Source: an uncultured Actinomycetes bacterium
GTDB lineage: Bacteria; Actinomycetota; UBA4738; HRBIN12
Assembly: GCA_964640085.1 (NCBI GenBank)
Contig: CAZXFA010000001.1
Location: 67,586 to 131,585 of the forward strand
Reading direction: 5' to 3'
DNA length: 64,000 nt
Below, one piece after another: positions 23,577-39,191 of the stretch. Every line of letters begins with the position of its first letter. Position 1 is the first letter of the stretch. A model generated the notes under the pieces. That model was not told where the DNA came from, made no database searches, and saw only the letters and a list, made by a program, of their open reading frames with translations. The translations under genes were made by a program, and so were the position numbers.

Positions 23577-23692
23577 GTCGAGATGCGTTCGCGCAGCTAG
23601 CAGCCGTCGTTGCCGCTATCCTACCGGTCCGCCGTGCCTCGCACGCGCCTGGCGGGTCGGCCGGGAGGCGCTGCTACGATGTGTGACCCCAC

Positions 23693-23779
<87 letters not shown>

Positions 23780-23801
23780 CGCAGCCATTCCACCCGATCG
23801 A

Positions 23802-23859
23802 CCGATCGCGCTGGAGCGTGTCGCGCCCCCGCGAGCATCGCGAGCCCCAGCGCGATCGG
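23802..23859. terminator. long hairpin (13-bp perfect inverted repeat CCGATCGCGCTGG / CCAGCGCGATCGG, 32-nt loop) between the convergent tRNA-Leu and nirK 3' ends
   Basis: Perfect inverted repeat read directly from the sequence. There is no U-tract, so if it acts as a terminator it would be a bidirectional, I-shaped type. Confidence 0.35.
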
Positions 23860-23890
23860 GAGCAGGATCTGCGTGCCGTCGTCGGGATCG

Positions 23891-25276: not shown

Positions 25277-25555
25277 AAGTTCGGCACTAAACGTTCGGGT
25301 TAGTCTGGCCGGGTTGGCAGGTGCGGCAAGGGGCCGGAGGTCCCGGTCGCACAGGGCCGACCGGCCTTGGTGCGTTCGTCAGGGCCGACGGGGTTCGAAG
25401 CGGCGGAGGAGATCGGACGGGTTGGGGCGGACGGGCCGACGGAGGAGAGGTGCGCCGGCCCGTCCGCGTCGCCCTCCCGGTGGGGCAGGAGGTAGAAATG
25501 TACAGTAATCTACTCAACGTCAGGTGGCAAGCCCAACGTAGGGTAGACTCCCCTC
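25277..25555. promoter_or_regulatory. divergent nirK / nsrR control region with an AT-rich inverted-repeat element (GTAGAAATGTACAGTAATCTAC, 25492..25513)
   Basis: 279-nt intergenic region between divergent starts. An unusually AT-rich 25-30 nt island in a 72% GC background, with GTAGA...TCTAC arms and a central TGTACA, sits ~40 nt upstream of the nsrR GTG. A second AT-richer patch (TTCGGCACTAAACGTTCGGGTTAGTCT) abuts the nirK start. Confidence 0.4.
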
Positions 25556-26053
25556 GTGGACCTGACCCTCACCCGCCGGGGCGACTACGTGGTCCGAGCG
25601 GCGATCAGCCTCGCGGCCGCCTGGGACGGGAACGGCGCCTACCGGAAGATCCGGGAGATCGCCGGCGAGATGCGCCTGCCTCCGAGCTACACGCCGCAGC
25701 TCCTCGGCGTGCTGGCCAAGGCCAGGCTGGCCGAGGCCAAGGCGGGTCGGGACGGCGGGTACCGGCTGACCCGGCATCCCGACGAGATCTCCCTCCTGCA
25801 GGTGATCGAGGCGGCTGAAGGGGACCTGGTCTCCAGGCGCTGTCCCCTCCGGGGCGGCCCCTGCCGGTGGGACGACGTGTGCGCCCTCCACCCCACCTGG
25901 AGCAAGGCCTCCGAGGCGATCCGCGCGACCCTGGCCGGAACCTCGTTGCTGGAGGTCGCGCGGGTCGATCGCCACCTCGGGGAGGGTGGGAAGATCCCCC
26001 TGCCGCCGGCCGGGCACCGGCGAACCCCCCACCGCCACCGCCCCCGTCGCTGA
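25556..26053 (+). CDS. nsrR: Rrf2-family transcriptional regulator, NsrR-like (three-Cys [Fe-S] ligand motif)
   Basis: N-terminal Rrf2 wHTH (...LTRRGDYVVRAAISLA...), then CPLRGGPCRWDDVC, matching the C-x5-6-C-x5-C cluster-ligand spacing of NsrR/IscR-type regulators. Divergent to nirK. Confidence 0.8.
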   Translation: MDLTLTRRGDYVVRAAISLAAAWDGNGAYRKIREIAGEMRLPPSYTPQLLGVLAKARLAEAKAGRDGGYRLTRHPDEISLLQVIEAAEGDLVSRRCPLRGGPCRWDDVCALHPTWSKASEAIRATLAGTSLLEVARVDRHLGEGGKIPLPPAGHRRTPHRHRPRR

Positions 26054-26150
26054 TCGGGGCGGTCAGGCCGAACGGCACCTCCCGGCCGGGGCGTCCGGCC
26101 CTCTCCTCCCGCCCCCGACGGCGGTACCAAGGGACGAGGAGGCGAGACGG

Positions 26151-26420
26151 ATGGCTGGATGGCAGGGCTTCCAGCAGTGCCCGGGCTGTGGCCTGGACCT
26201 GCTCACGGGTGAGGGGGTCCGGGGGTGCGCCTGGGGCGACTGCCCCTACCTCCCGGACGATCTGCGCATGACCTGTGACTACTGCATGTTCAACTTCCTC
26301 ACGATGGAGGGCAATCCTCCCTGCGACGCCCCGATGACCTGCGATCACGCGAAGGAGCCGCTGGCGCACGTGGAGAACCTGCGTCGGTGGGCGGCCGAGC
26401 AGGGTCGCGTAGTCCCCTAG
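26151..26420 (+). CDS. small Cys-rich protein (89 aa, 9 Cys; hypothetical metal/redox protein)
   Basis: ATG 26151, preceded by GAGGAGG at -14..-8. Product MAGWQGFQQCPGCGLDLLTGEGVRGCAWGDCPYLPDDLRMTCDYCMFNFLTMEGNPPCDAPMTCDH.... In the frame of track ORF 25986..26420. Same strand as nsrR, 97 nt downstream. Confidence 0.5.
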   Translation: MAGWQGFQQCPGCGLDLLTGEGVRGCAWGDCPYLPDDLRMTCDYCMFNFLTMEGNPPCDAPMTCDHAKEPLAHVENLRRWAAEQGRVVP

Positions 26421-26449
26421 GGGTCGAGCGGGGGGACGCGTTCGCGGGA

Positions 26450-27259
26450 TCAGCCCGCCTCGCTCGGATCCGATGGCTCCGACGCGCCTCCGAGGAGCCG
26501 CAGGTCGGGTAGCTCGAGCGGATCGCCCGGACGGGAGCTGGGAGCGACCTCCTGTCCGACGAGCAGGCGGAGGAGGTCCGGGAGATCCACCCGACGTCTC
26601 CCCGTGCCGTACCCGACGGCCTCCAGCCGCATCGTCGGCAGCTCCCCGAAGCCCTCGACGGTCGCGGCCAGGATCGCCGCGCCGGTCGCGGTGGTGAGCT
26701 CGGCGGCCACCCCGCGCGAGAACAGGGGGGCGCCGCGCAGGAGCTCCAGGACGGTCGGGGAGGGGATCGGCATCGCCCCGTGCTCGGTCCGCGCCAGCCC
26801 GAGACCCGTCGGCACCGCGGAGGAGAACACCCGGTCCACACCCAACGTCGTCAAGCCGATGGCGGTGCCGACGACCGCCACGACGGCGTCGACGCCGGCG
26901 GCCGCCGGGAAGGTCACGGCCTCCAGCTCGCGACGATGGACGCGGGCTTCCGCCTCCGCCAGGCGTCGGAAGATGCGGTGCGCTAGCAGCAGCGCGTCCT
27001 CGGGGAGGTCCCCCGCGTCCAGCAACGCCCGCACGCTCCGGTAGGTCCTGATCACGCCCACCGCCGAGGTGCGCACATCGACCAGGGTGGCGCGGATCCC
27101 CTGCTCCTCGACCCCGGTCACGTCGAGCTCGAACGGGCCGAGCGGGAGCGAGGACAGATGGGTCCGGATCGTGTCGGGGTCCGCGCCGACATCGATCAGG
27201 GCCGCGAGCGCGGTGTCGCCGGTGATGCCGGCGATGCAGTCGAAGTAGGCCACGCGCAT
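26450..27259 (-). CDS. LarC N-terminal-domain (DUF111/LarC1)-like protein, 269 aa, lacking the LarC2 C-terminal domain
   Basis: MRVAYFDCIAGITGDTALAALIDVGAD... matches the LarC/DUF111 N-terminal signature (M.ILY.DCFSGISGDM.LGAL.D.G). The protein ends in an acidic Pro-rich tail after ~270 aa. The track ORF 26450..27829 extends upstream but overlaps a better-supported plus-strand gene. Confidence 0.55.
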   Translation of the reverse strand: MRVAYFDCIAGITGDTALAALIDVGADPDTIRTHLSSLPLGPFELDVTGVEEQGIRATLVDVRTSAVGVIRTYRSVRALLDAGDLPEDALLLAHRIFRRLAEAEARVHRRELEAVTFPAAAGVDAVVAVVGTAIGLTTLGVDRVFSSAVPTGLGLARTEHGAMPIPSPTVLELLRGAPLFSRGVAAELTTATGAAILAATVEGFGELPTMRLEAVGYGTGRRRVDLPDLLRLLVGQEVAPSSRPGDPLELPDLRLLGGASEPSDPSEAG

Positions 27260-27373
27260 CCGGCAGGCCTCACCCGCGGTTCGTTCGACCGCGCGGTGCT
27301 CGATCGTATATATACTTCCGCCCTCTCGGGAAGCTGCCGGCCGGCGACCCTCGAATCGACGCCTGGGGACCGG
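27260..27373. promoter_or_regulatory. divergent intergenic region with a TATATATA element (27306..27313)
   Basis: 114-nt spacer between the divergent LarC1-like and DUF4446-like starts. It contains the only (TA)4 run in the vicinity (GATCGTATATATACTTCC), plausibly a -10-like element. Confidence 0.3.
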
Positions 27374-27868
27374 ATGACCTTCTCCATCGAAGCGCTCAGC
27401 CTGCTGGTCCTCGCCGCGCTCGGCCTCGGCGCCCTCGCGCTGATCCTGTCGGCGCTCTCGCAGGGACGACGTCGCAGCGAGCAGCGCGGACCGATCCAGA
27501 TGGACGACGTGCTCCGCGGCGTCCTGGAGGGACACGCCCGACAGATCCAGCGGCTGGAGTCGGCTGTGAGGTCGCTGAACTCGACCGCGCGCCGACAGGA
27601 GGCGCTGATCCACGGCGCGGTGCGTCGCGTCGGGTTGGTCCGCTACGACGCGTTCGAGGACGTAGGAGGACGCCTCTCCTTCTCCTGCGCCCTGCTCGAC
27701 GACCACGGGAGCGGGGTCGTGCTGACCTCGATCAATGGACGGCAGGACACGCGCGTGTACGCGAAACCGATCGGCGAGGGGAAGAGCCGCTACAACCTCT
27801 CGGTCGAGGAGGAGGAAGCGATCCGGCAAGCGCTCGCGGGACCCCGGGAGGCGGTGACCGCCACGTGA
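27374..27868 (+). CDS. DUF4446-like membrane-anchored protein (hypothetical)
   Basis: ATG 27374, in the frame of track ORF 27158..27868. N-terminal TM helix (LSLLVLAALGLGALALILSAL), then a ~120-aa conserved-looking domain (...IHGAVRRVGLVRYDAFEDVGGRLSFSCALLDDHGSGVVLTSINGRQDTRVYAKPI...). Confidence 0.5.
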   Translation: MTFSIEALSLLVLAALGLGALALILSALSQGRRRSEQRGPIQMDDVLRGVLEGHARQIQRLESAVRSLNSTARRQEALIHGAVRRVGLVRYDAFEDVGGRLSFSCALLDDHGSGVVLTSINGRQDTRVYAKPIGEGKSRYNLSVEEEEAIRQALAGPREAVTAT

Positions 27869-27930
27869 TCTGGCGACGGGAGGACCCGGATGCGCCCGGT
27901 GAGGGGCGCCAGGAGACGAGGGGGCGACGG

Positions 27931-28335
27931 ATGGCAGAGCAGAGCGGTGAGGTCACCATCGTCGGACAGGGAGCCAAGCTCGAGGGGACGGTGGTCTCGG
28001 CCGGCTCCCTCCGGATCGACGGCCAGGTGAAGGGACAGATCAACGCCGACGGCGACGTGATGCTCTCCCCGCAGAGCCAGGTCGAGGCCGACATCCGCGC
28101 GCAGAACGTCTCGGTGGCCGGGAGGTTCAACGGCTCGATCGTCGTCAAGGGGCGCGCCGAGATCGCCCGCGGGGGCCGCGTCGACGGCAACATCACGTCG
28201 AAGACGCTGGTCGTCGAGGAGGGCGCAGTCTTCCAGGGTCAGAGCATCATGGACCAGCAGAAGGCCCAGGCCCCCACGCCTCAGGCCGCCCAGGGCAAGG
28301 GCGAGGCGGCTCAGGCGCAGCAGGCCAAGGTCTAG
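27931..28335 (+). CDS. bactofilin family cytoskeletal protein
   Basis: MAEQSGEVTIVGQGAKLEGTVVSAGSLRIDGQVKGQINADGDVMLSPQSQVEADIRAQNVSVAGRFNGSIVVKGRAEIARGGRVDGNITSKTLVVEEGAVFQGQ shows the repetitive beta-helical bactofilin (DUF583) pattern. AGGAG lies 12-16 nt upstream of ATG 27931. Gln/Ala-rich C-terminal tail. Confidence 0.8.
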   Translation: MAEQSGEVTIVGQGAKLEGTVVSAGSLRIDGQVKGQINADGDVMLSPQSQVEADIRAQNVSVAGRFNGSIVVKGRAEIARGGRVDGNITSKTLVVEEGAVFQGQSIMDQQKAQAPTPQAAQGKGEAAQAQQAKV

Positions 28336-28338
28336 CCC

Positions 28339-29610
28339 GTGCTCGACGTCAGGGCGATCCGGGAGGATCCCGAGCCGTTCCGTCGCGGCCTGGCCCGGCG
28401 CGGCCTGGCCGACGCGGTCGACGAGATCCTGCGGCTGGACGAACGCCACCGCTCACTGACCGCGCGGGTCGAGGAGCGCCGCGCACAGCAGAACCGCGTC
28501 TCCAAGGAGATCGGTGGCGAGCAGGGCGACCGGAAGCAGGAGCTGATCGCCGAGGCGAGCAGGGTCTCCGCTGACCTGAAGGAGCTCGAGCCGGAGCTCG
28601 ACGAGGCCGAGCGGGAGCTGAACGGGCTGTTGGCCCGGACCCCGAACGTGCCGCACGACTCAGCGCCGGCCGGGTTCACCGACGAGGACGCGGTGGAGGT
28701 GCGCCGGCACGGGGAGCCGTCGACCTTCGACTTCGAGCCGCGGGACCATGTCGCCCTGGGCGAGCTCCTCGGCGTGCTCGACACCGAACGGGCGGCGCGC
28801 GCGAGCGGATCGCGGTTCGTGTACCTACTGGGGGACATCGTGCACGTCCAGTTCGCCTTGGTCCGCCACGCGCTCGAGATCCTGGCATCCAGGGGCTTCA
28901 CGCCGGTGATCCCGCCGGTGCTCGTGCGCGAGGAGGCGATGTACGGAACCGGGTTCCTCCCGACGGACGAGCCCAACCTCTACGTGACGACCGAGGATCA
29001 GCTCTACCTGGTGGGGACCTCCGAGGTCCCGCTGGCCTCGTTCCACATGGGCGAGATCGTGGAGGAGGCCGCGCTCCCGTTGCGCTACGCGGGGTACTCC
29101 ACGTGCTTCCGGCGCGAGGCCGGCACCTACGGCAAGGACATGGGCGGGATGTTCCGCGTGCACCAGTTCGACAAGGTGGAGATGTTCAGCTTCACGCGAC
29201 CCGAGGACTCGTGGGCGGAGCAAGAGTTGATGGTCTCCGTCGAGGAGGAGATCGTGCAGCGCCTGGACCTGCCCTACCGGGTGGTGAACATCGCCGCGGG
29301 CGAACTGGGCGGCGCGGCCGCGAAGAAGTACGACCTGGAGGTCTGGCTCCCCGGTCAAGGGCGCTACCGCGAGCTCACGTCCTGCTCGAACTGCACCGAC
29401 TACCAGGCTCGGCGCCTCCAGACGCGGGTCCGGCGATCCGACGGGACGATAGAGGCACTCCACACCCTCAACGGGACCGCGACGGCGGTCGGCCGCACCC
29501 TGATCGCTCTCATCGAGAACGGCCAGCGTGCGGACGGCTCGGTGGCGCTCCCGGCGGTGCTCCATCCATACCTGCCGGAGGCGCTCCGCGAGCTGCGCCC
29601 GCCGGGCTGA
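28339..29610 (+). CDS. serS: seryl-tRNA synthetase
   Basis: N-terminal coiled-coil arm, class II motifs (...FRREAGTYGKDMGGMFRVHQFDKVEMF..., ...GELGGAAAKKYDLEVWLPGQGRYRELTSCSNCTDYQARRL...). GTG start. 423 aa. Confidence 0.95.
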   Translation: MLDVRAIREDPEPFRRGLARRGLADAVDEILRLDERHRSLTARVEERRAQQNRVSKEIGGEQGDRKQELIAEASRVSADLKELEPELDEAERELNGLLARTPNVPHDSAPAGFTDEDAVEVRRHGEPSTFDFEPRDHVALGELLGVLDTERAARASGSRFVYLLGDIVHVQFALVRHALEILASRGFTPVIPPVLVREEAMYGTGFLPTDEPNLYVTTEDQLYLVGTSEVPLASFHMGEIVEEAALPLRYAGYSTCFRREAGTYGKDMGGMFRVHQFDKVEMFSFTRPEDSWAEQELMVSVEEEIVQRLDLPYRVVNIAAGELGGAAAKKYDLEVWLPGQGRYRELTSCSNCTDYQARRLQTRVRRSDGTIEALHTLNGTATAVGRTLIALIENGQRADGSVALPAVLHPYLPEALRELRPPG

Positions 29611-29664
29611 GCCCGGAGGCCGTTTCCGGGGCACGCTCGTCGCGTTCTGGCTGCCGCTGGCGGC

Positions 29665-31485
29665 CTACCGCCTGCGCGGGGCCGGCTCGGCCCGAACCCG
29701 GATCGCCAGGTCCCGGTATCGGCGCTCGAGCTCTTGGAGCTTGTGCTCGGCCGAACGCTGTCGGGTCACGTCGAGGGCGACCCCGTGCCAGAAGCGTGGC
29801 GTTCCGCCGGCGTCCCGGAGCAGCGTCGCCCGGCTGTGCAGCCACACGACGACGTCGTCCTCGCGGACGACGCGGAACTCCTCGTCGAACGGTTCCCCGG
29901 ACTCCTCGGCGCGGGCGTTGGCGGCCAGGACGCGTTCCCTGTCCTCCGGATGCAGCATCCGGCCGAAGTGCCCCGGATCCGCCATGAGCTCCTCGACCGT
30001 CAGACCGAAGATCCGCTCCACCTGAGGGCTCACGTACACGAACCGCGCCTGATCCGGCGCCTCACCGGGGACCTCGATGTAGGTCATCGCCGGGATCTGC
30101 TCGACCAGCGTCCGGTACAGGGTCTCGGCCTCTCGGATCCTGGTCTCGGCCTCCTTGCGCCCGGTGATATCCATCATCACGCCCTGGAACAGGTCCGGTC
30201 GGCCGTCCGCATCGCGGCTGAGCAGCACTGCCTCGTCGAGGACCCACACGATGCGACCGTCCTTGTGCAGGTACCGGAACTCCATCGAGAACGGTTCGCC
30301 GGTGGTCTCCGAGCGAAGGGCGGCGGCGATCACCGCCGTGCGGTCGTCTGGGTGCAGACGCGACATCCAGAAGTCGGGCGTCGCGTGCCACTCGTCGACG
30401 GTGTACCCGAGCATCCGCTCGATCCGCGGGCTCGTGTAGAAGCGCGACCGGTCGGGTGGGGGGGAGCATTCCCAGACGTAGGTCACGGCGGGGATCTGCT
30501 CCGCCAGGAGACGTGACCGGTGCTCGGCCTCGCGCAGCTCCGCCTCAGCGCGCCGCCGCTCGGCGATCTCGAGGGACATGAGCTCGTTGGCTTCCTCCAG
30601 GGCGGCCGCGCGTTCGACCACGCGCATCTCGAGCTCGTCGCGCGCGGTGCGCAGCTCGTCCTCGACGCGCTTGAGCTCGGTGATGTCGAGCTGGACGCCC
30701 AACCAGTGTTGTGGGCGACCGGCGTCGTCCCGGACGAGGGTCGCGACGTCCCGGAACCACACCGGCCGTCCGTCGCTCGCGATCAGCCGGTATTCACGCT
30801 TCCATGGCTCCCCGGTCTGGTTGTGACGATCGTGGGCGTCGAGCGTGAGCTCGCGGTCGTCGGGGTGCAGCAGCTCGGTCCAGATGTCGGGCTGGTCCAG
30901 CCACTCCTGTCTGGTATAGCCGAGGGTCCGCTCCACGTGCGGGCTCACGTACAGGGTTCGCCGGTCGTCGTCGGGCGCCACCATGTACACGACGGCCGGC
31001 ACGTTCTCCACCAGCAGCCGGTACCGGGTCTCGGATCCGCGGAGGGTCTCCTCGGTGAGCTTGGAGCCCGTGATATCGAAGACCACGCCCTGCCAGAAGA
31101 GCGGCTGTCCGTGCTCGTCCCGGAGCACGACCGCTCCGTCTCGGACCCAAACGACCGAGCCGTCCGGGCGCATGCACCGGTACTCGGACTCGAACCGATC
31201 CTGGCGCCCCATCGCCGCCGACCACTCCGCCATCACGCGGGCGTGGTCATCGGAGTGGATCGAGCGCGTCCACAGGTCGCGGTCGTGGAGGTACCGCGAG
31301 GGGGTGTGGCCCAGGATCGCCTCGACCTGCGGGCTCACGTAGAGCGTGCGCGAGCGGAGCTCGTTCGAGGCCACGTAGACGATCGCGGGGACCTGCTCGA
31401 CGAGGCTCCGATACAGCGCTCCGGACGCGTCCAGATGCCGCGGCGGCTCGGCCGCGCCGCGATCGCGGTGGTCGGGGGCCGACAT
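29665..31485 (-). CDS. multi-PAS sensor protein: four tandem PAS domains, no recognizable output domain
   Basis: Four ~125-aa repeats, each of the form ...YVSP(Q/H/R)VE..LG(Y/H)T..E(W/L).......W...(L/I)HP(D/E)DR........ ....GEP(F/W)..E(Y/F)R.......VW...... ......G.P..(W/F)(Q/H/L)GV..DIT..K. The repeats are also visible at DNA level with a ~450-nt period. Confidence 0.8.
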   Translation of the reverse strand: MSAPDHRDRGAAEPPRHLDASGALYRSLVEQVPAIVYVASNELRSRTLYVSPQVEAILGHTPSRYLHDRDLWTRSIHSDDHARVMAEWSAAMGRQDRFESEYRCMRPDGSVVWVRDGAVVLRDEHGQPLFWQGVVFDITGSKLTEETLRGSETRYRLLVENVPAVVYMVAPDDDRRTLYVSPHVERTLGYTRQEWLDQPDIWTELLHPDDRELTLDAHDRHNQTGEPWKREYRLIASDGRPVWFRDVATLVRDDAGRPQHWLGVQLDITELKRVEDELRTARDELEMRVVERAAALEEANELMSLEIAERRRAEAELREAEHRSRLLAEQIPAVTYVWECSPPPDRSRFYTSPRIERMLGYTVDEWHATPDFWMSRLHPDDRTAVIAAALRSETTGEPFSMEFRYLHKDGRIVWVLDEAVLLSRDADGRPDLFQGVMMDITGRKEAETRIREAETLYRTLVEQIPAMTYIEVPGEAPDQARFVYVSPQVERIFGLTVEELMADPGHFGRMLHPEDRERVLAANARAEESGEPFDEEFRVVREDDVVVWLHSRATLLRDAGGTPRFWHGVALDVTRQRSAEHKLQELERRYRDLAIRVRAEPAPRRR

Positions 31486-31559: not shown

Positions 31560-31649
31560 GGGAGGATGGCCGAGCGGACGAAGGCGGCGGTCTTGAAAAC
31601 CGCTAGTCCCGCAAGGGGCTCCTGGGTTCGAATCCCAGTCCTCCCGCCA
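31560..31649 (+). tRNA. tRNA-Ser (anticodon TGA), class II, CCA encoded
   Basis: Acceptor GGGAGGA/TCCTCCC (perfect 7 bp), D-arm GCCGAGCGG, anticodon stem GCGGT/ACCGC with loop CTTGAAA, long variable arm, T-arm CTGGG-TTCGAAT-CCCAG, discriminator G, then CCA. Confidence 0.85.
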
Positions 31650-31931: not shown

Positions 31932-33419
31932 CTACCCAGTGGAGCGGTCGGCGCCCTTCGTCCCGGCGGCCCGACCGTCCGCGACGCGGCCGTCGGTGAT
32001 CCGGAGCACGCGATCGAGGCGGGGCTCGACCTCCTCGTTGTGCGTCGCGATCACGCAGCAGGTCCCCAGGGCGGCGGCCGCCCCGAAGGCATCCAGGATC
32101 CGTCGGGCCGAGCCCGCGTCCTGGTGCCCGGTGGGCTCGTCGGCGAGCAGGAGCGCCGGCCGGAGCACGAGGGCTCGCGCCACCGAGGCGCGCTGCTGCT
32201 CGCCGAGGGACGTCTCCCGCGGGTAGCGACGCTCCAGGTGCTCGATGCCCAGCGCGGCCAGGAGCTCGTCGACCCGATCGCTCCCCCGCTCGAGCCGTGC
32301 GGTCAACCGGAGCGGATACCCGACGTTCTCCCGCACCGTGAGCTCCTCGAGCATGCCGAGCTTCTGTGGGACCACGGCGACCTCGTGCCAGGCGGGGATC
32401 GACGAGCCCACACGCTCGAGCGTCCCGGCGTCGGGACGCTCCCAGCCCGCGAGGACGTTCAGGAGCGTGGTCTTGCCCGAGCCGGACCGGCCCACCAACC
32501 CCACCAGCTCCCCGGCGCGCAGCGAGAGCGACACGCGGTCCAGCGCGTGCACGGCTTCGTCGCCGCGGCGGTAGGACTTGGAGAGCCCGATTGCGGTCAC
32601 CACCGGCGTCGCCTCCGCCTCGACGTCAGCGACCGGTGGCGTGACTTGGGGTGCCCACCGGACGCCGCGGTCCGGCACGCCGCGCGGCGGGCGGGCCGCT
32701 CCCGGCTCGCCGGATCGGATGGGCGCTGCCCGTCCGCCGGGGCGCCTCCGCTGCACCCCGTGCTCGAGCTCGAGCGCCTCGTCGGCTCGACGCATCACCG
32801 CCGGGTCGTGCGTGGCGAGCACGAACGTCACGCCGCGGTCGACGAGCGCCCTGATCGTGTCCAGCACCAGCCGCGCCGACGCCGTGTCGAGCTCGGCGGT
32901 CGGCTCGTCGGCGACGATCGTCTCCGCTCCGCCCATCAGGACCTCGGCCATCGCGGCGCGCTGCTGCTCCCCGCCCGAGAGCTCGCCGGGGAGGTGGTCG
33001 ATCCGGTGGGCGATGCCGAGCGTCTCCAGGAGATCCTCCGGCGGGATCCGCGGTGGCCGATGGGTGATCCTGGCGGCCATCCGGAGGTGCTCCCCGACCG
33101 TGAGGTGTGGCAGGAAGTTGTCCGAGGGCCGCTGGAAGAGGTAGCCGACCACCGTGCGACGGAACCTCCGCAGATCTCGTCCCGAGGCTCGGTGCACCGG
33201 GGTCCCCCCGACGACCAGCGTGCCCTCGGTTGGCCGGTCCAGTCCCGCGAGCAACCGCAGCAGCGAGGACTTCCCGCTCCCCGAGGGCCCGATCACGGCG
33301 GTGAGGGCGCCGGCGGGGAGCTCGGCCGTGATGCCGGCCAGGGCCCGGACCTCGCTGGCGTCGGTGCGGTAGGTCTTCACGAGCCCGTCGGACCGGGCCG
33401 CGACGCCTTCAGTCCGCAA
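31932..33419 (-). CDS. ABC transporter ATP-binding protein with two tandem ABC domains (MacB/LolD-type ATPase duplicated)
   Basis: Two Walker A motifs (GPSGSGKSSLL, GRSGSGKTTLL), two signature motifs (LSGGEQQR, SLGEQQR), two Walker B motifs (IVADEPT, LLADEPTGHQD). Confidence 0.85.
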   Translation of the reverse strand: MRTEGVAARSDGLVKTYRTDASEVRALAGITAELPAGALTAVIGPSGSGKSSLLRLLAGLDRPTEGTLVVGGTPVHRASGRDLRRFRRTVVGYLFQRPSDNFLPHLTVGEHLRMAARITHRPPRIPPEDLLETLGIAHRIDHLPGELSGGEQQRAAMAEVLMGGAETIVADEPTAELDTASARLVLDTIRALVDRGVTFVLATHDPAVMRRADEALELEHGVQRRRPGGRAAPIRSGEPGAARPPRGVPDRGVRWAPQVTPPVADVEAEATPVVTAIGLSKSYRRGDEAVHALDRVSLSLRAGELVGLVGRSGSGKTTLLNVLAGWERPDAGTLERVGSSIPAWHEVAVVPQKLGMLEELTVRENVGYPLRLTARLERGSDRVDELLAALGIEHLERRYPRETSLGEQQRASVARALVLRPALLLADEPTGHQDAGSARRILDAFGAAAALGTCCVIATHNEEVEPRLDRVLRITDGRVADGRAAGTKGADRSTG

Positions 33420-36153
33420 GTCGCATCACCTCACCCAGGTCGGCACGACGCGCGCGCACCCCCGTGAGCCAACCGCCGACGAGCGTCGCCAGGGCGAGCG
33501 CCGGAGCGAGCCACGCGACGACCGAGAGCGGGAGGACGGTGAGGGGCGGGGGTGGGACCACCTCGAGCGGGTCGAGCAGCGGGATCGTCAGGCGCGCCGC
33601 GACCACCCCGAGGACGGCGCCCGCGACGTACGCGGCCGCCAGGAGCGCGCCGAGCTCGGCCGCGACCGCGCGCACGTGCCCGCGCCCGTCCATCCCCATC
33701 CTGAGCGACAGGCCGTAGGTGACGATCTGCGACCGCTGCCGTGCCTGCAGGTACATCAGGGTCGCCACGATGACCAGGAGCGCCGCCGCGAGGCCGAGAC
33801 CGTTCATCACCAGGAACGTGTCGATCACGGCCGAGATGTAGGGGATGTCCTTCACCTCGTCGGTCGTGAGCACCAGATCGGGGAGGTATGGGAGCGTCGC
33901 GAGCGCCTCGCGCGCGGCGTCGGGCGTGGCCCGGATCCAGAGCTCGGTCGTGGTGTCGGACGCGTCCAACGGGTTCGGGGTGCCTCCGAGGGCGGCCAAC
34001 AACCGCTGTTCGTCCGCGATCACCAGGGGGCGGAGCGACGACATCCCCGGGAAGGCCTCCGCGTGACCGACGACCGCGATCGGGATCGTCTGCGTGCCCA
34101 CCGTGATCGTCGAGGGATCCGGACCGTTCCACGCCGCCAGGATCACGCGGACCTCGGGGGTCCCGCCGCCGAGGAGCCGGCCGGTGAGCTCCTCCAGCGG
34201 GACCTCGGAGAACGAGGGGTCCCAGAAGGCGGCGTCTGCGAACGTCGCCGCATCGATGGTCAGCAGGTCGAAGGGCACGTCATCGCGGAAGGTTCCCGCC
34301 TGGAACGCCCGGCTCACACGCGTGAACGGCTCGCCGATCCGCTCGGGGACCACGTTCCCGTAGTCGATCCTGGCCTGCACAGCACTCCCGACGTACACGG
34401 CCGCCTTCGCATCGACCGTCGCCCGGACCGAACGCGTGAGGGCCTGCGCCTCGACGAACAGGCCGAGGCACAGCCCCGCGGCGGAGGTCACGAGGAGGGT
34501 CAGCCCGGCGGTACCTGCCAGCCGATGGATTGCGAGGAACGGGGCGGGTGACAGGCGGCCGCTCCGCCGCCGGAGCGCCACGAGCGCGAGCGTGAAGCCT
34601 CTGGCGACGATCGAGACGAACCCCGCGAGGAAGAGCACCGGGAACAACAGCAGGAGCGGGCTCGGACGCTTCGAGATCGAGGACGGATCCTCGAGCAGCG
34701 CTCCGCCCGAGCGGAGCCGATCGAGCACGACCAGCGCCAGGGCGGCGATCCCCAGCTCCCACGGAACGCGGGAGAGCACGCCCAGCCGCGCCCGATGGTG
34801 CTCGGAGTGTCGGAGGAAGGACACCGCCGCGACCAGCCCGTTCACGAGCACGGCGGCCAGGGCGGCGAGCGTACCGGCCAGGACGGCCTCCTGGAGGGCG
34901 CCGGCGTCGATCCTCCCCTCGGGTCCCAACGTGCGGACCACGACGAACGCGACGCCGAACCCGGTCACCGCACCGATGACCGCGGGCAGGAGCGATTCGA
35001 GCGCGGCCCGGGTGGCGATCGTTCCCGGGCCGGTCCCACGGGCGTTCAGCAGCGCGGCCTCGACCCGGCGCGCCGACATCGCGAACGCGCCCGCCGAGGC
35101 GACGACGACGAGCGCCACCAGCAGCCCGGCCACGCGGAGGAGCCCCGCCGGGCCCTCGACCGTGGTCATGCGACGTTGGACGTCGGTCGCGACGTCGTCG
35201 ATGCGGGTCGTGAACGTCGGATCGAACTGGGACCGACAGAAGCTCACGTAGCAGCTGTGGAACGCCTCGCCGGGCGCGGTCCCCGGCCGCGTTCGTTCGT
35301 TCAACCGGTCGGCGAGATCCGCGATCCCCCGGGCCTCCACCAGGGTCACGTCCCGCGCGAGTGGCGCCTGCCACGCATACCAGGCGCGGCCGATCCCGAG
35401 CTCGTCGGACATCTGGAGGAACTCGGCCCGCTCGACGATCAGGGGCTGGGGAGGCGGAGGACAGTTGCTGCAGTACAGCACCAGTTCGTCGTACCAGGGG
35501 TTCCAGTAGCCGGAGATCCTCCCTCGGTACAGGCCGCGGAAGACGCCCCGCACGGTCAGAGGCTCTGAGGCCTGCCGGTCGCTCGAGAGGACGATGCGGT
35601 CCCCCGGCGCGATGTCGAGCGCGTCGGCCACCAGGTCCGGCACCCACACGCCGCCCGAGCCCGAGCCGGCGACCACCTCGACGTGGGCGTCGACGCCCTC
35701 GCCCGTGAACAGCCGGATCTCCCGCGTGTTCCGGGGTGCGTCCGCCCGAGCGACGTGGAGCTGAGGTCCGAGGATCGACGCGACCGCCCGATCGAGCAGC
35801 GGGCTCGACCCGGTGAGGCGCCGGAACGCCTCGTCCGCCACCGTGACCGGCTCGCCGAGCCCGGTGCCGGACGGGGGCGGGAGGCTGTCCGACCGATGGG
35901 TCAGCCCGGCTCCGAAACGCGTGACGGTGGCGTCGGCGATGCGGCTCCGAACCAGGCCGCTCGCCGTCGCGGACAGGAACATCGGGTGGGCCGCCGCCGT
36001 AGCGGCGAGCAGGAGGGCCCCCACCGCGAGCGCGATCAGGAGCCCCGGATAGCGGAGCAGGATCAGCGGCGCGTGGGTCCACAGCGGGTTCGCGCCCCCC
36101 GTTCCGGTGGAAGCCTTCAGCCGGCCGTCCTTTCCGTCCTGCGTCCGAGCCAC
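33409..36153 (-). CDS. FtsX-family (MacB-like) ABC transporter permease, 914 aa
   Basis: Very long polytopic protein with two FtsX-like 4-TM modules separated by large extracytoplasmic domains. Overlaps the ATPase start by 11 nt. Confidence 0.75.
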   Translation of the reverse strand: MARTQDGKDGRLKASTGTGGANPLWTHAPLILLRYPGLLIALAVGALLLAATAAAHPMFLSATASGLVRSRIADATVTRFGAGLTHRSDSLPPPSGTGLGEPVTVADEAFRRLTGSSPLLDRAVASILGPQLHVARADAPRNTREIRLFTGEGVDAHVEVVAGSGSGGVWVPDLVADALDIAPGDRIVLSSDRQASEPLTVRGVFRGLYRGRISGYWNPWYDELVLYCSNCPPPPQPLIVERAEFLQMSDELGIGRAWYAWQAPLARDVTLVEARGIADLADRLNERTRPGTAPGEAFHSCYVSFCRSQFDPTFTTRIDDVATDVQRRMTTVEGPAGLLRVAGLLVALVVVASAGAFAMSARRVEAALLNARGTGPGTIATRAALESLLPAVIGAVTGFGVAFVVVRTLGPEGRIDAGALQEAVLAGTLAALAAVLVNGLVAAVSFLRHSEHHRARLGVLSRVPWELGIAALALVVLDRLRSGGALLEDPSSISKRPSPLLLLFPVLFLAGFVSIVARGFTLALVALRRRSGRLSPAPFLAIHRLAGTAGLTLLVTSAAGLCLGLFVEAQALTRSVRATVDAKAAVYVGSAVQARIDYGNVVPERIGEPFTRVSRAFQAGTFRDDVPFDLLTIDAATFADAAFWDPSFSEVPLEELTGRLLGGGTPEVRVILAAWNGPDPSTITVGTQTIPIAVVGHAEAFPGMSSLRPLVIADEQRLLAALGGTPNPLDASDTTTELWIRATPDAAREALATLPYLPDLVLTTDEVKDIPYISAVIDTFLVMNGLGLAAALLVIVATLMYLQARQRSQIVTYGLSLRMGMDGRGHVRAVAAELGALLAAAYVAGAVLGVVAARLTIPLLDPLEVVPPPPLTVLPLSVVAWLAPALALATLVGGWLTGVRARRADLGEVMRLAD

Positions 36154-36536
36154 TACTTTCTACGTCGCCGGCCGCTTCCCTCGCTCGCGATGACGTGCGC
36201 GAGTGGATTGAGCCCTGGCCAGGCGGCTCGACGCCGTCGGCGTCGATCGGTGACCTCTACCGGATCGACCGCTTCGCCGTCCCGCGAGGCCGACCTCTTG
36301 GCCTAGTCCGGACGATGGGTGCATCCGTAGGCCAACGGAGGTAGAGCACATCACCTGCCGTCCCCATACTGGATTCCGCCAGATGGGGCTACAGGAGGAG
36401 CGTTAGGGGACGAGCACGACACCGTCCGGGGGGCGCCGGATCGTCGAGTTGCGTCCCACGTCCTCGCGATCGGCCGAGGGCAGGTCGATCAGGTGCATCG
36501 CCCGCTACCGCAGATCGAGCCAGAAGGAGCGATGTG

Positions 36537-36779
36537 ATGCTTGGCAGGTTCACCGCGAACATCCGTGTTGGTTTCTCCTCGATCACCCGCCTGACCGCCG
36601 GGAAGGTGGCGGTCGGCGCGGTCGTCGCCGCCTCCCTCGTGACTCCCCAGGGATGGAGGCTGCTCGTCACCATCGCAGCCCTCGCTCTGCTGTTCGCCGC
36701 TGCTGGCGCGTTCCTGGGGATCGACCTCGAGGCGCAGAGGAAGGGGGCGAGGACGGATGTCTTCTCTGATCGGTCGTAG
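36537..36779 (+). CDS. small membrane protein (80 aa, two hydrophobic segments; hypothetical)
   Basis: AAGGAG lies 8 nt upstream of ATG 36537 (a GTG at 36534 is also in frame). Product ...GKVAVGAVVAASLVTPQGWRLLVTIAALALLFAAAGAFLGIDL.... Its stop overlaps the next gene's start region. Confidence 0.45.
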   Translation: MLGRFTANIRVGFSSITRLTAGKVAVGAVVAASLVTPQGWRLLVTIAALALLFAAAGAFLGIDLEAQRKGARTDVFSDRS

Positions 36780-37854
36780 GTTCCGTAGGCTCCGGGAGGA
36801 CGAGGGCGGCGCGGTCCTGCTGGTCGTCGCGCTCACTCTGGCGGCCCTGGTCGGGATGCTCGCCCTCGTGTTCGACCTGGGGTCGTTGGTGTCGACGCGC
36901 AGGACCGCGGTCAAGGCGGCGGATGCCGCGGCCTTGGCGGCAGCGCAGTCCTGTTTCGATGGGGACTCGGCCGGAGCGCCGGTCGTGGCCGAACGGATCG
37001 GCCTGGCCAACATGGAGGACTCCGGCACGAGCCTCTCGGGGACAACCTCCACGATCGTCGCGCAGGAAGGCTGTGGGACGAACAGGGACTACGGGTACGT
37101 GACCGTCAGGGTCTCCACCGATCAGGACCTGTACTTCTCCCCGATCTTCGGCATCGGCTCGCACGGCGTCGCCGCTGAGGCCACGGCGGCGTGGGGCATG
37201 GTGGTCGGGCCGCCCGTGCCGGTCATGGCCTCCATCGGCGGGCCGAATGAGTTCTCGTCGTGCGACACCCCCCAGTCCACCCCGGGCGGGACGTGCTACA
37301 TGCTGATGGACAACGACCAGAATGAAGGGGGTCAATTCGGATACCTGAGCCTGACGAACTGGTATCCGGTGGGGACCGACCCGCTGACGATGGACTGCAA
37401 CTCCGCGGGCGGCACCAACCTCATCCGCGATCAGATCGCCGGGGTCAACATGCCGAGCTACGTCTACGGTGCCCCTGCTTGGTCGTGCAAGGTGCCCGGC
37501 GAGAGCGCCCAGACCTGGCCGACCCTGTCGGGGCTGACTCGCTGGTTCCCGTTGACCAACCCGGCCGTGACCGAACCGTCCGGCAAGTTCTACTACGTGC
37601 AAGGCTTCGCGCAGGCCACGGTCGTCAGCGTCGAGCAGAAGAGCTGGAGCGACGTCGCCACCGATCCGGACAGCGGGGATGGGAGCGGCAACGAGGCTCC
37701 GCCCTCGATCGACACGACGCAGCAGACCTGCGGCAACGGCATCCTGGTCCCCCCGAATGGCAGCTACTCCTGCATCGGGCTGACGTGGCACACGTCCTTG
37801 ATGCCCACGCCCGGCGACACGGCGATCGCTGAGGGGGTGCACCTGATCGAGTAG
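36757..37854 (+). CDS. TadE/G-like N-terminal-domain (PF13400-like) secreted Cys-rich protein, 365 aa
   Basis: N-terminus ...RRLREDEGGAVLLVVALTLAALVGMLALVFDLGSLVSTRRTAVKAADAAALAAAQ matches the Flp-pilus-assembly TadE/G-like N-domain (TM plus the AADAAALA motif). The remainder has ~14 Cys in a Gly/Thr/Ser-rich context and no obvious vWA MIDAS. GAGGAAGGGGG upstream of ATG 36757. Confidence 0.55.
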   Translation: MSSLIGRRFRRLREDEGGAVLLVVALTLAALVGMLALVFDLGSLVSTRRTAVKAADAAALAAAQSCFDGDSAGAPVVAERIGLANMEDSGTSLSGTTSTIVAQEGCGTNRDYGYVTVRVSTDQDLYFSPIFGIGSHGVAAEATAAWGMVVGPPVPVMASIGGPNEFSSCDTPQSTPGGTCYMLMDNDQNEGGQFGYLSLTNWYPVGTDPLTMDCNSAGGTNLIRDQIAGVNMPSYVYGAPAWSCKVPGESAQTWPTLSGLTRWFPLTNPAVTEPSGKFYYVQGFAQATVVSVEQKSWSDVATDPDSGDGSGNEAPPSIDTTQQTCGNGILVPPNGSYSCIGLTWHTSLMPTPGDTAIAEGVHLIE

Positions 37855-37968
37855 GGTCAGCCAGGCGCCCGGTCAACGTCGTCCTGGCGAGACCGGCATC
37901 CTGCGGATGGCTCGTGACCTGAGGACCCGGCGGCGTTGGGGACACCGCCCGGCTGGACAGGAGGGACC

Positions 37969-38313
37969 ATGTCGAGATACTCACTCATCGAAGATGAGAA
38001 GGGGAACTACCGGTACGGGTACGAACGGTTCGAGGAGCAGGAGACGCCCCCCGAGCCCGACGACCAGAAGTCGACGCTGCGGGCGCTCATGCGCGACGCG
38101 GACGCGGCGGACAGGCGGATGACGCTGGACGAGTTGAAGGCGAGGATCACCGCCATCCTGCCGGGGGCCACCTTCGAGGTGGACGACCTCGGCCAGATCC
38201 TCATCCGCAGCAGCTTCCGGGTGCACATCGACTCCGAGGCGTTGGCGGAGATCCTGCGTCGGAAGGCGCGCGATCACGTTCCGCCCAAGAAGGGTCGGTT
38301 CCGGAGGAACTGA
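37969..38313 (+). CDS. hypothetical cytoplasmic protein, 114 aa (charged; noticeably lower-GC codon usage)
   Basis: AGGAGGGA lies 3-10 nt upstream of ATG 37969. Product MSRYSLIEDEKGNYRYGYERFEEQETPPEPDDQKSTLRAL...ITAILPGATFEVDDLGQILIRSSFRVHIDSEALAEILRRKARDHVPPKKGRFRRN. Local GC is ~52-60%, against >70% in the flanking genes. Confidence 0.45.
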   Translation: MSRYSLIEDEKGNYRYGYERFEEQETPPEPDDQKSTLRALMRDADAADRRMTLDELKARITAILPGATFEVDDLGQILIRSSFRVHIDSEALAEILRRKARDHVPPKKGRFRRN

Positions 38314-38368: not shown

Positions 38369-38983
38369 TCAGCTGCCGTGGGCCGAGTTGGCGCTCGCGT
38401 GCGCGGGCCCGTTGGCGTTGCCGTTACCCTGCGCTCCGGCCTGCCCGGGCGCCGCGTGCGAGTGTGGGCCACCTGGCTGCCCGTTCCCGTTGCCCGGCTT
38501 GCCGTCCGGCCACTTCGCCTCGAACTTCTCCCGCAGCCACAGCTCGTGCTGGTGGTGGCGGAGCCAGTTCTGGCCGAGGTGGGCGAGCGCGTTCCGCAGC
38601 CCGCGGTTCGCGTGATCCTCGCAGTTCGTGAGCACGGAGCGGATCCCCTGGACGCCGTGGCTCGTCTGGCCTCCGTCCAGCGCCTCGATCAGCGTGCCGA
38701 ACGCGTCCACGATGACCACGTCTGCCAGGTCCGCGTCGCCGAGCAGGTCGGCGCCGCACCTCTTGGCGAAGGCATCGAAGTACTGCCCGATGTCCGCCCC
38801 GTCCTCCGGATCGACCGTCTGCGGGACGAGCGGGTCGGTCGCCCCGGTGAGGGCCTCCTCCGCGCCCCATGGCGGCCCGGAGCTGGTGCGGGCGATAGCG
38901 GTGCCTACGCCGGCAAGCAGGAGTGCCGAGGCCGCCACCGCCACGACCCTACGACCGCGGTGGCGGGTGTGGGTCTCGCTCAT
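38369..38983 (-). CDS. secreted hypothetical protein with a Gly/Asn/Ala-rich C-terminal tail (204 aa)
   Basis: ATG 38983 (an internal Met of track ORF 38369..39619). Signal-peptide-like MSETHTRHRGRRVVAVAASALLLAGVGTAIA, mature domain with NCEDHANRG ... HHQHELWLREKF, and tail GNGNGQPGGPHSHAAPGQAGAQGNGNANGPAHASANSAHGS. The upstream 212 aa of the track ORF is low-complexity, off-frame-looking sequence. Confidence 0.5.
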   Translation of the reverse strand: MSETHTRHRGRRVVAVAASALLLAGVGTAIARTSSGPPWGAEEALTGATDPLVPQTVDPEDGADIGQYFDAFAKRCGADLLGDADLADVVIVDAFGTLIEALDGGQTSHGVQGIRSVLTNCEDHANRGLRNALAHLGQNWLRHHQHELWLREKFEAKWPDGKPGNGNGQPGGPHSHAAPGQAGAQGNGNANGPAHASANSAHGS

Positions 38984-39191
38984 GACGGCAAGTATGCTCG
39001 GCCGCGCCCGGTGGCGGAAGGACCCGTCCGGCCGTTTCGCCCGCTCTGGGCGGGGGACCGACCTTCGGCCGGGAAGGGTCCCTTGGGTGGTGCCACCCGG
39101 GGGAGGCGGGTCTCGGCCGTGCGGTTGCCTGACCGGGCAACCCGGCTTCGATGATGAGAGGGGCTCGGACAGGGCCCGTATCCTGGGCCTC

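What the first reader, a model, noticed from the sequence alone, without database searches (positions are those of the whole stretch)
36160..38313. Lower-GC three-gene module: small 2-TM protein, TadE/G-like Cys-rich secreted protein, small charged cytoplasmic protein
From ~36.2 to 38.3 kb the GC content drops visibly. I counted 62% in 36541..36600, and the 114-aa gene is ~52-60%, against >70% in the flanking transporter and haem genes. The central 365-aa protein starts with the TM + AADAAALAAA motif typical of the Flp/Tad pseudopilin-like TadE/G N-domain. It then has ~14 Cys in a Gly/Ser/Thr-rich body and no obvious vWA/MIDAS. There are no other tad genes (no cpaF/tadA ATPase, tadB/C, flp pilin or prepilin peptidase) anywhere in the window. 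All three genes have strong Shine-Dalgarno sequences (AAGGAG, GAGGAAGGGGG, AGGAGGGA), unlike many neighbours. The composition, the orphan pseudopilin-like domain and the uniform strong RBS together suggest a horizontally acquired unit of unknown function. The 380-nt region upstream (36154..36533) also holds a near-perfect hairpin CCCCATaCTGG-(6 nt)-CCAGaTGGGG at 36362..36388.
Basis: partly seen in the sequence, partly recalled or inferred. Interest (0 to 1): 0.55.

Follow-up and report, generated by a model that had tools for sequence, protein, structure and literature searches.

The report
Orphan TadG-like pilin three-gene operon
This is a small operon kept intact across one clade of uncultured soil Actinomycetota: a TadG-type pilus tip protein, away from any pilus machinery genes, with two lineage-specific small proteins and a conserved upstream DNA block; it is a modest variant of a known kind, and recent foreign origin is not supported.

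Summary
The three ORFs are real and form one unit: orf80 (36537-36779, two hydrophobic segments), orf365 (36757-37854) and orf114 (37969-38313). Orf365 passes Pfam gathering scores for Tad (PF13400) and Tad_C (PF09977). It has 8 Cys, not about 14, and 7 are conserved family-wide.

The GC dip is real but small (67.5% against 71.6%). It sits at codon position 1. GC3 is close to the window norm for orf365 and orf114, and lower for the 80-codon orf80. The dip is therefore mostly amino-acid composition, not foreign codon usage.

Flanking genes differ in most relatives.

No Tad machinery genes lie in the window or in the DNA held around the trio in relatives (up to 10 kb each side). Distant homologues of orf365 (33-39% identity) lie in complete Flp-TadE-TadG-RcpC-TadZ-TadA-TadB-TadC loci.

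Best reading: an orphan TadG-family minor (tip) pilin cassette that serves a Tad pilus encoded elsewhere. This is not proven. The functions of orf80, orf114 and the non-coding block are unknown. Divergence similar to housekeeping genes suggests vertical inheritance within the clade; recent horizontal acquisition is not supported.

The parts
36296..36402 (+). Conserved non-coding block upstream of the operon (TTGGCCTAGTCCGGACGATGG...GTAGAGCAC...CCCCATACTGG-loop-CCAGATGGGGCTACAGGAGG). Its nature is unresolved: promoter/operator or leader RNA.
   Evidence: Present in all 17 relatives with distinct sequence. Mean pairwise nt identity is 83%, equal to the CDSs (80-86%), against 52% for the adjoining spacer. 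Eight of the 9 metagenome pattern matches are this block, and in all 8 the trio follows it. RNAalifold gives 0 compensatory pairs. No Rfam family. 1-nt indels exclude coding.
36362..36388 (+). It lies inside the conserved block, and its 5' arm contains a -10-like CATACT (36365-36370).
   Evidence: Read from the sequence. The arms are conserved and the loop varies in relatives. Some relatives break pairs without compensation, e.g. L009. No T-run follows, and the scan found 0 terminator-like sites.
36403..36536 (+). Variable spacer between the block and orf80, ending in the Shine-Dalgarno AAGGAG (36524-36529).
   Evidence: Spacer length is 65-299 nt across 11 loci and mean identity 52%. AAGGAG is invariant.
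36537..36779 (+). orf80: an 80-aa membrane protein with two hydrophobic segments joined by an invariant P-x-G-W-R-L-L turn. Its 3' end overlaps orf365 by 23 nt.
   Evidence: ORF. 47 protein clusters, all 64-100% identical, no Pfam domain. Alignment A5. GC3 is 84%. No similarity to Flp or TadE: hhalign probability <1%.
36757..37854 (+). orf365: a TadG-family protein. It has a basic leader ending in G18 and a hydrophobic helix. The Tad domain covers aa 18-64 and Tad_C aa 52-144. Both lie in the predicted helix-plus-sheet N-terminal module, which is followed by a beta-rich C-terminal domain (about aa 150-365). Seven of its 8 Cys are conserved across the family.
   Evidence: Pfam. Homologues. Alignment A3: C66, C180, C214 and C244 invariant; C106, C169 and C339 at least 90% conserved. 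AlphaFold2 pLDDT 71: helices 16-67 and 71-89, sheet 93-150, beta-rich C-terminus.
37855..37968 (+). Variable intergenic gap with GGAGG (37960-37964) 4 nt before the orf114 ATG.
   Evidence: Gap length is 31-260 nt in relatives and mean identity 39%. Sequence.
37969..38313 (+). orf114: a 114-aa charged, presumably cytoplasmic protein. The N-terminus is acidic and low-confidence in the model, the core is MTLDELKA+ITAILPGATFEVDDLGQI, and the C-terminal tail is basic.
   Evidence: 65 clusters, all 62-100% identical, no Pfam domain. A profile search of 1.84 billion representatives found only 14 hits at E<=1e-3. GC3 is 91%. The AlphaFold2 model is poor, pLDDT 55.

Best explanation
The locus is a lineage-specific operon: conserved upstream block, orf80, orf365, orf114. 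Its central product is a TadG-family large minor pilin.

Proposed mechanism:
- Orf365 is inserted into the cytoplasmic membrane by its basic leader and hydrophobic alpha-1 helix.
- Its N-terminal helix-plus-sheet module lets it join the tip-priming complex of a Flp/Tad pilus. The motor (TadA), platform (TadB/C), major pilin (Flp) and TadE are encoded elsewhere in the genome.
- Its compact, probably disulfide-stabilised beta-rich C-terminal domain is displayed at the pilus end as an alternative adhesion or recognition module.
- Orf80 (membrane) and orf114 (cytoplasmic) are dedicated accessory factors, for example for holding or delivering the pilin, or for regulation.
- The conserved upstream block controls expression.

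Shown: family membership of orf365, conservation of the four-part unit, absence of tad genes nearby, and canonical tad-locus context of distant homologues.

Inferred: incorporation into a pilus, tip location, existence of a tad locus elsewhere in this genome, disulfide bonding, and the roles of orf80, orf114 and the block.
For: - Orf365 passes the gathering scores of PF13400 and PF09977.
- The whole length aligns with 430-470-aa homologues. The N-terminal module is highly conserved (D56-A63 nearly all invariant) and so are the shared C-domain Cys.
- Two of those homologues, P0029 and P0052, sit in canonical loci: TadE-TadG-RcpC-TadZ-T2SSE-T2SSF-T2SSF in L006, preceded by Flp in L028.
- Other homologues of about 380 aa occur in orphan clusters with a second TadG-like protein and an N_methyl pilin. 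Orphan copies of this family therefore recur beside other pilin genes.
- Published work has TadG-type proteins as the backbone of Tad tip complexes with variable C-terminal modules. It also shows tip-gene clusters encoded away from the core machinery in Myxococcus (PMC12075869).
- CpaL of Caulobacter is modelled at the pilus tip (PMC12607857).
- PF13400 proteins of the actinobacterium Micrococcus luteus are essential for Flp-pilus-dependent transformation (PMC4322843).
- A conserved 23-nt overlap of orf80 and orf365, and the unbroken trio in all relatives, indicate co-expression.
Against: - No Tad or type IV pilus machinery gene was seen in 64 kb of this genome or in the DNA held around the trio in relatives, up to 10 kb each side. 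The rest of the genome could not be searched.
- The trio lacks the TadE/TadF partners that accompany TadG in known tip clusters. Orf80 shows no similarity to Flp or TadE.
- The residue at +5 after the conserved G18 is Val (Ile/Val in the family), not the Glu/Phe/Tyr of the prepilin-peptidase motif. Processing is therefore doubtful.
- Structural matches to pilins are weak and embedded among unrelated hits of equal score. Foldseek found nothing at E<=0.001.
- The C-domain confidence is only moderate.
Confidence: 0.45

Rival explanations
1. Pilus-independent envelope module. The TadG-like N-terminus serves only as a membrane anchor. Orf365 displays its Cys-containing ectodomain on the cell surface and forms a small complex with the two-segment membrane protein orf80. 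Orf114 is a cytoplasmic partner. Together they would form a clade-specific envelope, sensing or signalling device that has been uncoupled from Tad pili.
For: - No tad genes near the trio in any of about 20 loci.
- Fixed partnership with two proteins that have no counterpart in tad loci.
- No E/F at +5 of the putative cleavage site.
- The architecture of membrane protein + exported protein + cytoplasmic protein, with a strongly conserved regulatory block, is self-contained.
Against: - The pilin-like N-terminal module is conserved as strictly as in tad-locus homologues. That would be unexpected if it were only a membrane anchor.
- No signalling or enzymatic domain is detectable in any of the three proteins.
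Confidence: 0.3
2. One reading: a recently horizontally acquired island of unknown function. This concerns origin, so it is not exclusive of the two functional readings.
For: - Lowest-GC 2.15-kb stretch of the window and top 3% in tetranucleotide distance.
- Different flanking genes in most relatives, and integrase-core genes next to the module in L009 and L014.
- In the window the module is inverted relative to the PAS-serS block compared with L002-L004, and is separated from it by an ABC transporter.
Against: - GC3 is 90-91% for the two larger genes, within about 1 SD of 27 reference genes. The dip is at GC1.
- Protein divergence between the window and L002 matches SerS and FhaA.
- The trio was found only in this clade of Actinomycetota MAGs. 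There are no plasmid, PHROG or PADLOC hits.
- No terminal repeats and no conserved right boundary beyond the stop codon.
- The window and L002-L004 keep the module within a few kb of the same PAS-serS-bactofilin-FhaA-FtsW block.
Confidence: 0.12
3. The conserved upstream block is a structured cis-regulatory RNA, a riboswitch-like leader that controls the operon.
For: - It is conserved as strongly as the coding sequence while the neighbouring spacer is not.
- It always lies upstream on the same strand as the operon.
- It holds a conserved hairpin with a variable loop.
- It has a faint resemblance to the Guanidine-III aptamer (CCGGACGA).
Against: - RNAalifold: 18 pairs, none compensatory, covariation term +0.14, energy only -10.6 kcal/mol.
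- An all-pairs scan found no helix-level covariation on either strand.
- Several substitutions break predicted pairs.
- The folding z-score of the leader is only -1.9.
- The Guanidine-III score is 13.6 bits against a gathering score of 36, and the matching stem is not kept in relatives.
- The sequences are too similar for a fair covariation test.
Confidence: 0.15

Closest known systems
TadG / CpaL / KilN-type large minor pilins of Tad (type IVc) pili
   Same: - N-terminal Tad domain (PF13400) with a single hydrophobic helix, followed by Tad_C.
- A predicted helix-plus-sheet pilin-like module with a separate C-terminal domain.
- Distant homologues of orf365 occupy the TadG position in canonical actinobacterial tad loci.
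   Different: - No vWA/MIDAS domain, unlike CpaL and many proteobacterial TadG (PMC12607857).
- Much shorter: 365 aa.
- Not in a tad locus.
- No adjacent TadE/TadF.
- Val rather than Glu/Phe at +5 of the putative cleavage site.
Orphan 'Tip' gene clusters of the Myxococcus xanthus Kil (Tad-like) pilus (Herrou et al. 2025, PMC12075869)
   Same: A TadG-like protein encoded away from the core machinery, with a variable C-terminal domain. This is the concept of interchangeable pilus tips.
   Different: - Myxococcus tip clusters each encode TadE-, TadF- and TadG-like pilins.
- Here the partners are a membrane protein with two hydrophobic segments and a charged cytoplasmic protein. Neither shows similarity to pilins.
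Micrococcus luteus Mlut_07560 / Mlut_18150 (PF13400 proteins needed for Flp-pilus-dependent transformation, PMC4322843)
   Same: Actinobacterial proteins with a single transmembrane helix and a PF13400-like N-terminus. They are genetically tied to Flp pili.
   Different: [quoted passage not shown] The gene here is detached from any such cluster.
GspK-type tip pseudopilins of type II secretion
   Different: No sequence relationship. The match is no better than unrelated alpha/beta folds in the same list.

Membership tests
Pfam Tad (PF13400) / Tad_C (PF09977), 'TadG-related pilus assembly protein' | Score above the curated gathering threshold for the N-terminal Tad domain | tested here: met
   31.0 bits against 22.3, residues 18-64
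Pfam Tad (PF13400) / Tad_C (PF09977), 'TadG-related pilus assembly protein' | Score above the gathering threshold for Tad_C | tested here: met
   23.5 bits against 22.1, residues 52-144. This is marginal. Close homologues carry the same precomputed hit.
TadG as a component of a tad locus | Encoded with tadA/cpaF, tadB, tadC, tadZ, rcpC, flp and tadE | tested here: not met
   No such genes in the 64-kb window or in the DNA held around the trio in relatives, up to 10 kb each side. The rest of the genome is not available.
TadG as a component of a tad locus | Required for piliation, or present in pilus fibres | not testable with these tools
   Needs genetics or proteomics in an uncultured lineage.
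CpaL-type TadG (vWA tip adhesin) | vWA domain with a MIDAS motif | tested here: not met
   No VWA family in Pfam at E<=1. The C-domain is beta-rich with no matching fold.
Type IV (class III signal peptide) pilins | Prepilin-peptidase site G/A-X4-E/F/Y after a short basic leader | tested here: inconclusive
   The basic leader and a near-invariant G18 are present, but +5 is Val, and Ile/Val across the family.
Type IV (class III signal peptide) pilins | Alpha-1 helix packed on an antiparallel beta-sheet | tested here: inconclusive
Myxococcus-type tip gene cluster (TadE+TadF+TadG) | Adjacent TadE- and TadF-like minor pilin genes | tested here: not met
   The neighbours are orf80 and orf114. Orf80 against Flp and TadE gives hhalign probability <1%. 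No PF07811 hit.
NCBIfam TIGR03816, Rv3654c-family TadE-like protein | Score above the curated cut-off | tested here: not met
   28.8 bits against 50.95
Guanidine-III riboswitch (RF01763), for the upstream block | Score above the gathering threshold, with a conserved pseudoknot | tested here: not met
   13.6 bits against 36, E = 2.4. The aligned stem is not conserved in relatives.
Recently acquired genomic island | Foreign codon usage (GC3) relative to the host | tested here: not met
   GC3 is 90.2% and 91.3% against 92.5 +/- 1.9% in reference genes. Orf80 is 84.0% on 80 codons. The deviation is mainly at GC1.
Recently acquired genomic island | Mobility genes or boundary repeats | tested here: inconclusive
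   None in the window. rve integrase-core genes adjoin the module in L009 and L014. There is no conserved right-end repeat.

The most novel reading that the evidence does not exclude
The conserved block plus the trio is a self-contained system that no longer depends on a Tad pilus. A TadG-derived, disulfide-stabilised ectodomain would work with a dedicated two-segment membrane partner and a novel charged cytoplasmic protein as a previously undescribed envelope sensing or adhesion device. It would be controlled by a new, sequence-constrained cis-element, possibly an RNA leader.
Probability: 0.15. Interest if true: 0.6.

Novelty: new variant of a known kind. Interest (0 to 1): 0.33.

Why it matters
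- If the pilin reading holds, this extends the recent idea of interchangeable, separately encoded Tad pilus tips. That idea comes from Myxococcus, with models for Caulobacter. The extension would be to uncultured soil Actinomycetota.
- It would do so with a minimal TadG form and two unknown partner proteins in place of TadE/TadF.
- It also yields a well-delimited ~105-nt conserved regulatory block and two orphan protein families with a fixed genomic association. These are concrete handles for experiments.
- It does not bear on a long-standing open question, and nothing here would greatly surprise a specialist.

Tried and rejected
- **Foreign composition as evidence of transfer.** Rejected: the dip is mainly at GC1, not GC3.
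- **Upstream block as a known RNA family.** Rfam gave nothing at gathering thresholds, and only chance-level SNORD35 and Guanidine-III hits.
- **Upstream block as structured RNA.** RNAalifold and an all-pairs covariation scan on both strands gave no compensatory helix. Single-sequence folding z-scores were -1.9 and -2.2.
- **Upstream block as coding sequence.** Excluded by stop codons and 1-nt indels.
- **Hairpin as terminator.** No T-run, and 0 terminator-like sites in the scan.
- **Sigma-70-type promoter in the block.** The scan found none there. The only hit, at 37954-37981, overlaps the orf114 start.
- **Orf80 as a degenerate Flp or TadE.** hhalign probability <1%.
- **Orf114 fold or family.**
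  - The AlphaFold2 model is too poor (pLDDT 55) for a fold search.
  - There were no significant PDB sequence hits.
  - Pfam, NCBIfam, PHROGs and PADLOC gave nothing.
  - The profile search of 1.84 billion representatives found essentially only the family itself, plus one protein with a tandem copy of the core motif.
- **Mobile cassette boundaries.** No terminal repeats and no conserved sequence beyond the orf114 stop.
- **Plasmid carriage.** No tblastn match in 72,556 plasmids.
- **Partial hits P0025 and P0050 on long contigs.** These look like frameshift-fragmented assemblies and added nothing.
- **Are the tad-locus homologues (L006, L028) from the same lineage as the window?** No shared genes, so this could not be decided.
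Full report
**What is in the sequence**

Three same-strand ORFs occupy 36537-38313.
- Orf80 (36537-36779) has an alternative GTG start at 36534.
- Orf365 (36757-37854) overlaps orf80 by 23 nt.
- Orf114 (37969-38313) follows.

An identical 2.5-kb Logan contig has the same three genes called. Each ORF has the frame-specific GC3 of real genes in this genome. Each is conserved as a protein in dozens of database clusters.

**Composition**

- The stretch 36160-38313 is 67.5% GC against 71.6% for the window. It is essentially the lowest 2.15-kb stretch (rank 0.16%, about 2.9 SD below the mean).
- GC3 is 84.0% (orf80), 90.2% (orf365) and 91.3% (orf114). In 27 reference genes of the window it is 92.5 +/- 1.9%.
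- GC1 is 58.7-63.0% against 73.1 +/- 3.4%.
- The dip therefore mostly reflects amino-acid content. Orf365 is rich in Gly, Ser, Thr and Asn, and orf114 in charged residues.
- Tetranucleotide distance is in the top 3% of windows. The multicopper-oxidase region near 24.2 kb deviates more.
The figure of 52-60% for orf114 holds only for local 60-nt windows; the gene is 65.2%. The Cys count is 8, not about 14.

**The central protein**

- Orf365 passes the Pfam gathering scores for Tad PF13400 (31.0 against 22.3 bits, residues 18-64) and Tad_C PF09977 (23.5 against 22.1, residues 52-144). It has no vWA hit.
- It falls below the cut-off of TIGR03816.
- AlphaFold2 with a 45-sequence alignment gives pLDDT 71. 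It predicts a long helix (16-67), a second helix (71-89), a beta-sheet (93-150) at pLDDT 80-92, and a beta-rich C-terminal domain of moderate confidence.
- Foldseek against PDB found nothing at E<=0.001.
- In the family alignment, C66, C180, C214 and C244 are invariant. C106, C169 and C339 are at least 90% conserved. That fits an exported, disulfide-bonded domain, but this is an inference.
- G18 at the end of the basic leader is near-invariant. The +5 residue is Val (Ile/Val in the family), not Glu/Phe/Tyr.

**Relatives of the central protein fall in three classes**

1. About 20 clusters at 73-86% identity, all from 'Actinomycetota bacterium' soil MAGs or metagenomes.
2. Proteins of 430-470 aa at 33-39% identity. 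P0029 and P0052 sit in canonical loci. L028 runs Flp-TadE-TadG-RcpC-TadZ(CbiA)-TadA(T2SSE)-TadB-TadC. L006 has the same order from TadE onwards.
3. Proteins of about 380 aa in orphan clusters with a glycosyltransferase, a second TadG-like protein and an N_methyl pilin.

The family is therefore a genuine Tad-pilus family, and detached paralogues recur within it.

**The unit and its context**

- Every class-1 locus with enough sequence shows the same order: an ~80-aa gene, the TadG-like gene overlapping it, and a 108-117-aa gene.
- Orf80 has 47 clusters at 64-100% identity. Orf114 has 65 clusters at 62-100% identity. Neither was found outside this group.
- A profile search of 1.84 billion representatives with the orf114 alignment returned only 14 hits at E<=1e-3, mostly the family itself. 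One 178-aa protein carries the core motif twice.
- Neither small protein matches Pfam, NCBIfam, PHROGs, PADLOC or PDB sequences.
- Orf80 is not detectably related to Flp or TadE.

No Tad machinery gene lies in the window or in the DNA held around the trio in any relative, up to 10 kb each side.

Flanking genes differ from locus to locus.

| Locus | Neighbours of the trio |
|---|---|
| window | ABC transporter upstream; a secreted-protein gene downstream, then hemE |
| L002-L005 | MarR-GNAT |
| L007 | Cu P-type ATPase |
| L008 | FAA hydrolase and AlkZ-like glycosylase |
| L009 | SpoIID/LGFP protein and an rve_3 integrase core |
| L010 | sigma-70/SnoaL protein |
| L014 | rve integrase core |

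The window and L002-L004 keep the trio within a few kb of the same PAS-serS-bactofilin-FhaA-FHA-PP2C-FtsW block. In the window it is inverted relative to that block and separated from it by the ABC transporter.

Protein identity between the window and L002 is similar for module and housekeeping proteins.

| Protein | Identity, window vs L002 |
|---|---|
| orf365 | 79% |
| orf114 | 70% |
| SerS | 74.6% |
| FhaA | 75% |

(Values.) This fits inheritance within the clade followed by local rearrangement better than recent import. There is no plasmid match and no conserved right-end repeat.

**The upstream block**

It is part of a ~105-nt block (36296-36402) found upstream of the trio in all 17 relatives with distinct sequence.

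| Region | Mean pairwise nt identity over 11 loci |
|---|---|
| Upstream block | 83% |
| Three CDSs | 80-86% |
| Spacer to orf80 (65-299 nt) | 52% |
| orf365-orf114 gap | 39% |

(Values.)

- A degenerate-pattern scan of the metagenome collection returned nine places. Eight are this block followed by the trio, and one is a chance match.
- It is not coding, because it has stop codons and 1-nt indels.
- It matches no Rfam family. The best hits are SNORD35 at 17.5 bits and Guanidine-III at 13.6 bits, both against a gathering score of 36.
- The hairpin is not followed by a T-run.
- RNAalifold gives 18 pairs with none compensatory and a covariation term of +0.14.
- My all-pairs scan found only isolated, non-helical covarying columns on either strand.
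- With sequences this similar, the test has little power.
- A -10-like CATACT lies in the hairpin's 5' arm at 36365-36370. This is read from the sequence and was not tested.
- Whether the block is a promoter/operator or a leader RNA remains open.

**Mechanism**

The best-supported reading (0.45) is an orphan TadG-family minor pilin cassette.
- Orf365 would enter the membrane through its leader and alpha-1 helix.
- It would join the tip-priming complex of a Tad pilus made by genes elsewhere.
- It would display its compact Cys-containing domain at the tip.

Three papers lend support.
- PMC12075869 places TadG-type proteins as the backbone of Tad tip complexes, with interchangeable tips encoded in separate clusters.
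- PMC12607857 models CpaL at the Caulobacter pilus tip.
- PMC4322843 shows that actinobacterial PF13400 proteins are essential for Flp-pilus-dependent transformation.

Three points count against this reading: the missing TadE/F partners, the unverified machinery, and the atypical +5 residue.

The main rival (0.30) is a pilus-independent envelope module built from a TadG-derived anchor plus orf80 and orf114. Recent horizontal acquisition (0.12) concerns origin rather than function and is poorly supported.

**Verdict**

- Orf365 is a member of a known family.
- The fixed trio with two orphan proteins and a conserved cis-block is a new variant of a known kind, of moderate to low interest.

Noticed in passing
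L026:424-5185 and L027:423-5130: Orphan clusters in other metagenomic contigs: a ~380-aa TadG-like protein, a UDP-glycosyltransferase, a second ~435-aa TadG-like protein, and an N_methyl (type IV pilin-like) protein. This is a second kind of detached TadG cassette in the same protein family.
   Followed up: partly
P0179 (178 aa, from the representative library): A protein with low-GC-type composition that carries the orf114 core motif twice in tandem (LKELKTKVLEILPNAGFEEDGEGQITIYTGL / YQELRRKIQAILPDMELDVDETNQIVIYTGL). It has no Pfam or NCBIfam family. This may be a small uncharacterised domain that is wider than the clade.
   Followed up: partly
window 23891-25276 (-): A multicopper oxidase / cupredoxin gene lies in the most tetranucleotide-deviant stretch of the window, around 24.2 kb. 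That stretch is more deviant than the finding itself.
   Followed up: no
window 38369-39010 (-): A gene for a secreted protein of unknown function lies downstream of the trio. It has an N-terminal signal-like segment and a C-terminal Gly/Asn/Gln/His/Ala-rich low-complexity tail, and no Pfam hit. The downstream DNA is shared with the closest relative, L014, but is not part of the conserved unit.
   Followed up: partly
window 19993-31485 compared with L002:12140-21134: The gene block FtsW-PP2C-FHA-FhaA ... bactofilin-serS-PAS is shared with relative L002 (SerS 74.6% and FhaA 75% identity). In the window an ABC transporter pair (31932-36153, - strand) lies between this block and the trio, and the trio is inverted relative to L002.
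   Followed up: partly
L002:11710-11850, L004:11696-11836, L005:3095-3235 (- strand): A conserved 46-aa ORF (MVNWDGWEAEIRERLAELTNEQSS...) lies convergent to the trio in the L002-L005 group. It is absent from the window.
   Followed up: no
L024 and L025 (ENA long contigs): The partial TadG-like hits P0025 and P0050 lie in contigs whose genes are broken into many short fragments. This is consistent with frameshift-rich long-read assemblies. They should not be read as truncated paralogues.
   Followed up: partly
window 23693-23777, 31560-31646, 54054-54143, 55628-55700 (+): Four tRNA genes were detected by Rfam at gathering thresholds. None adjoins the trio, so there is no tRNA-linked integration site at the finding.
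   Followed up: no
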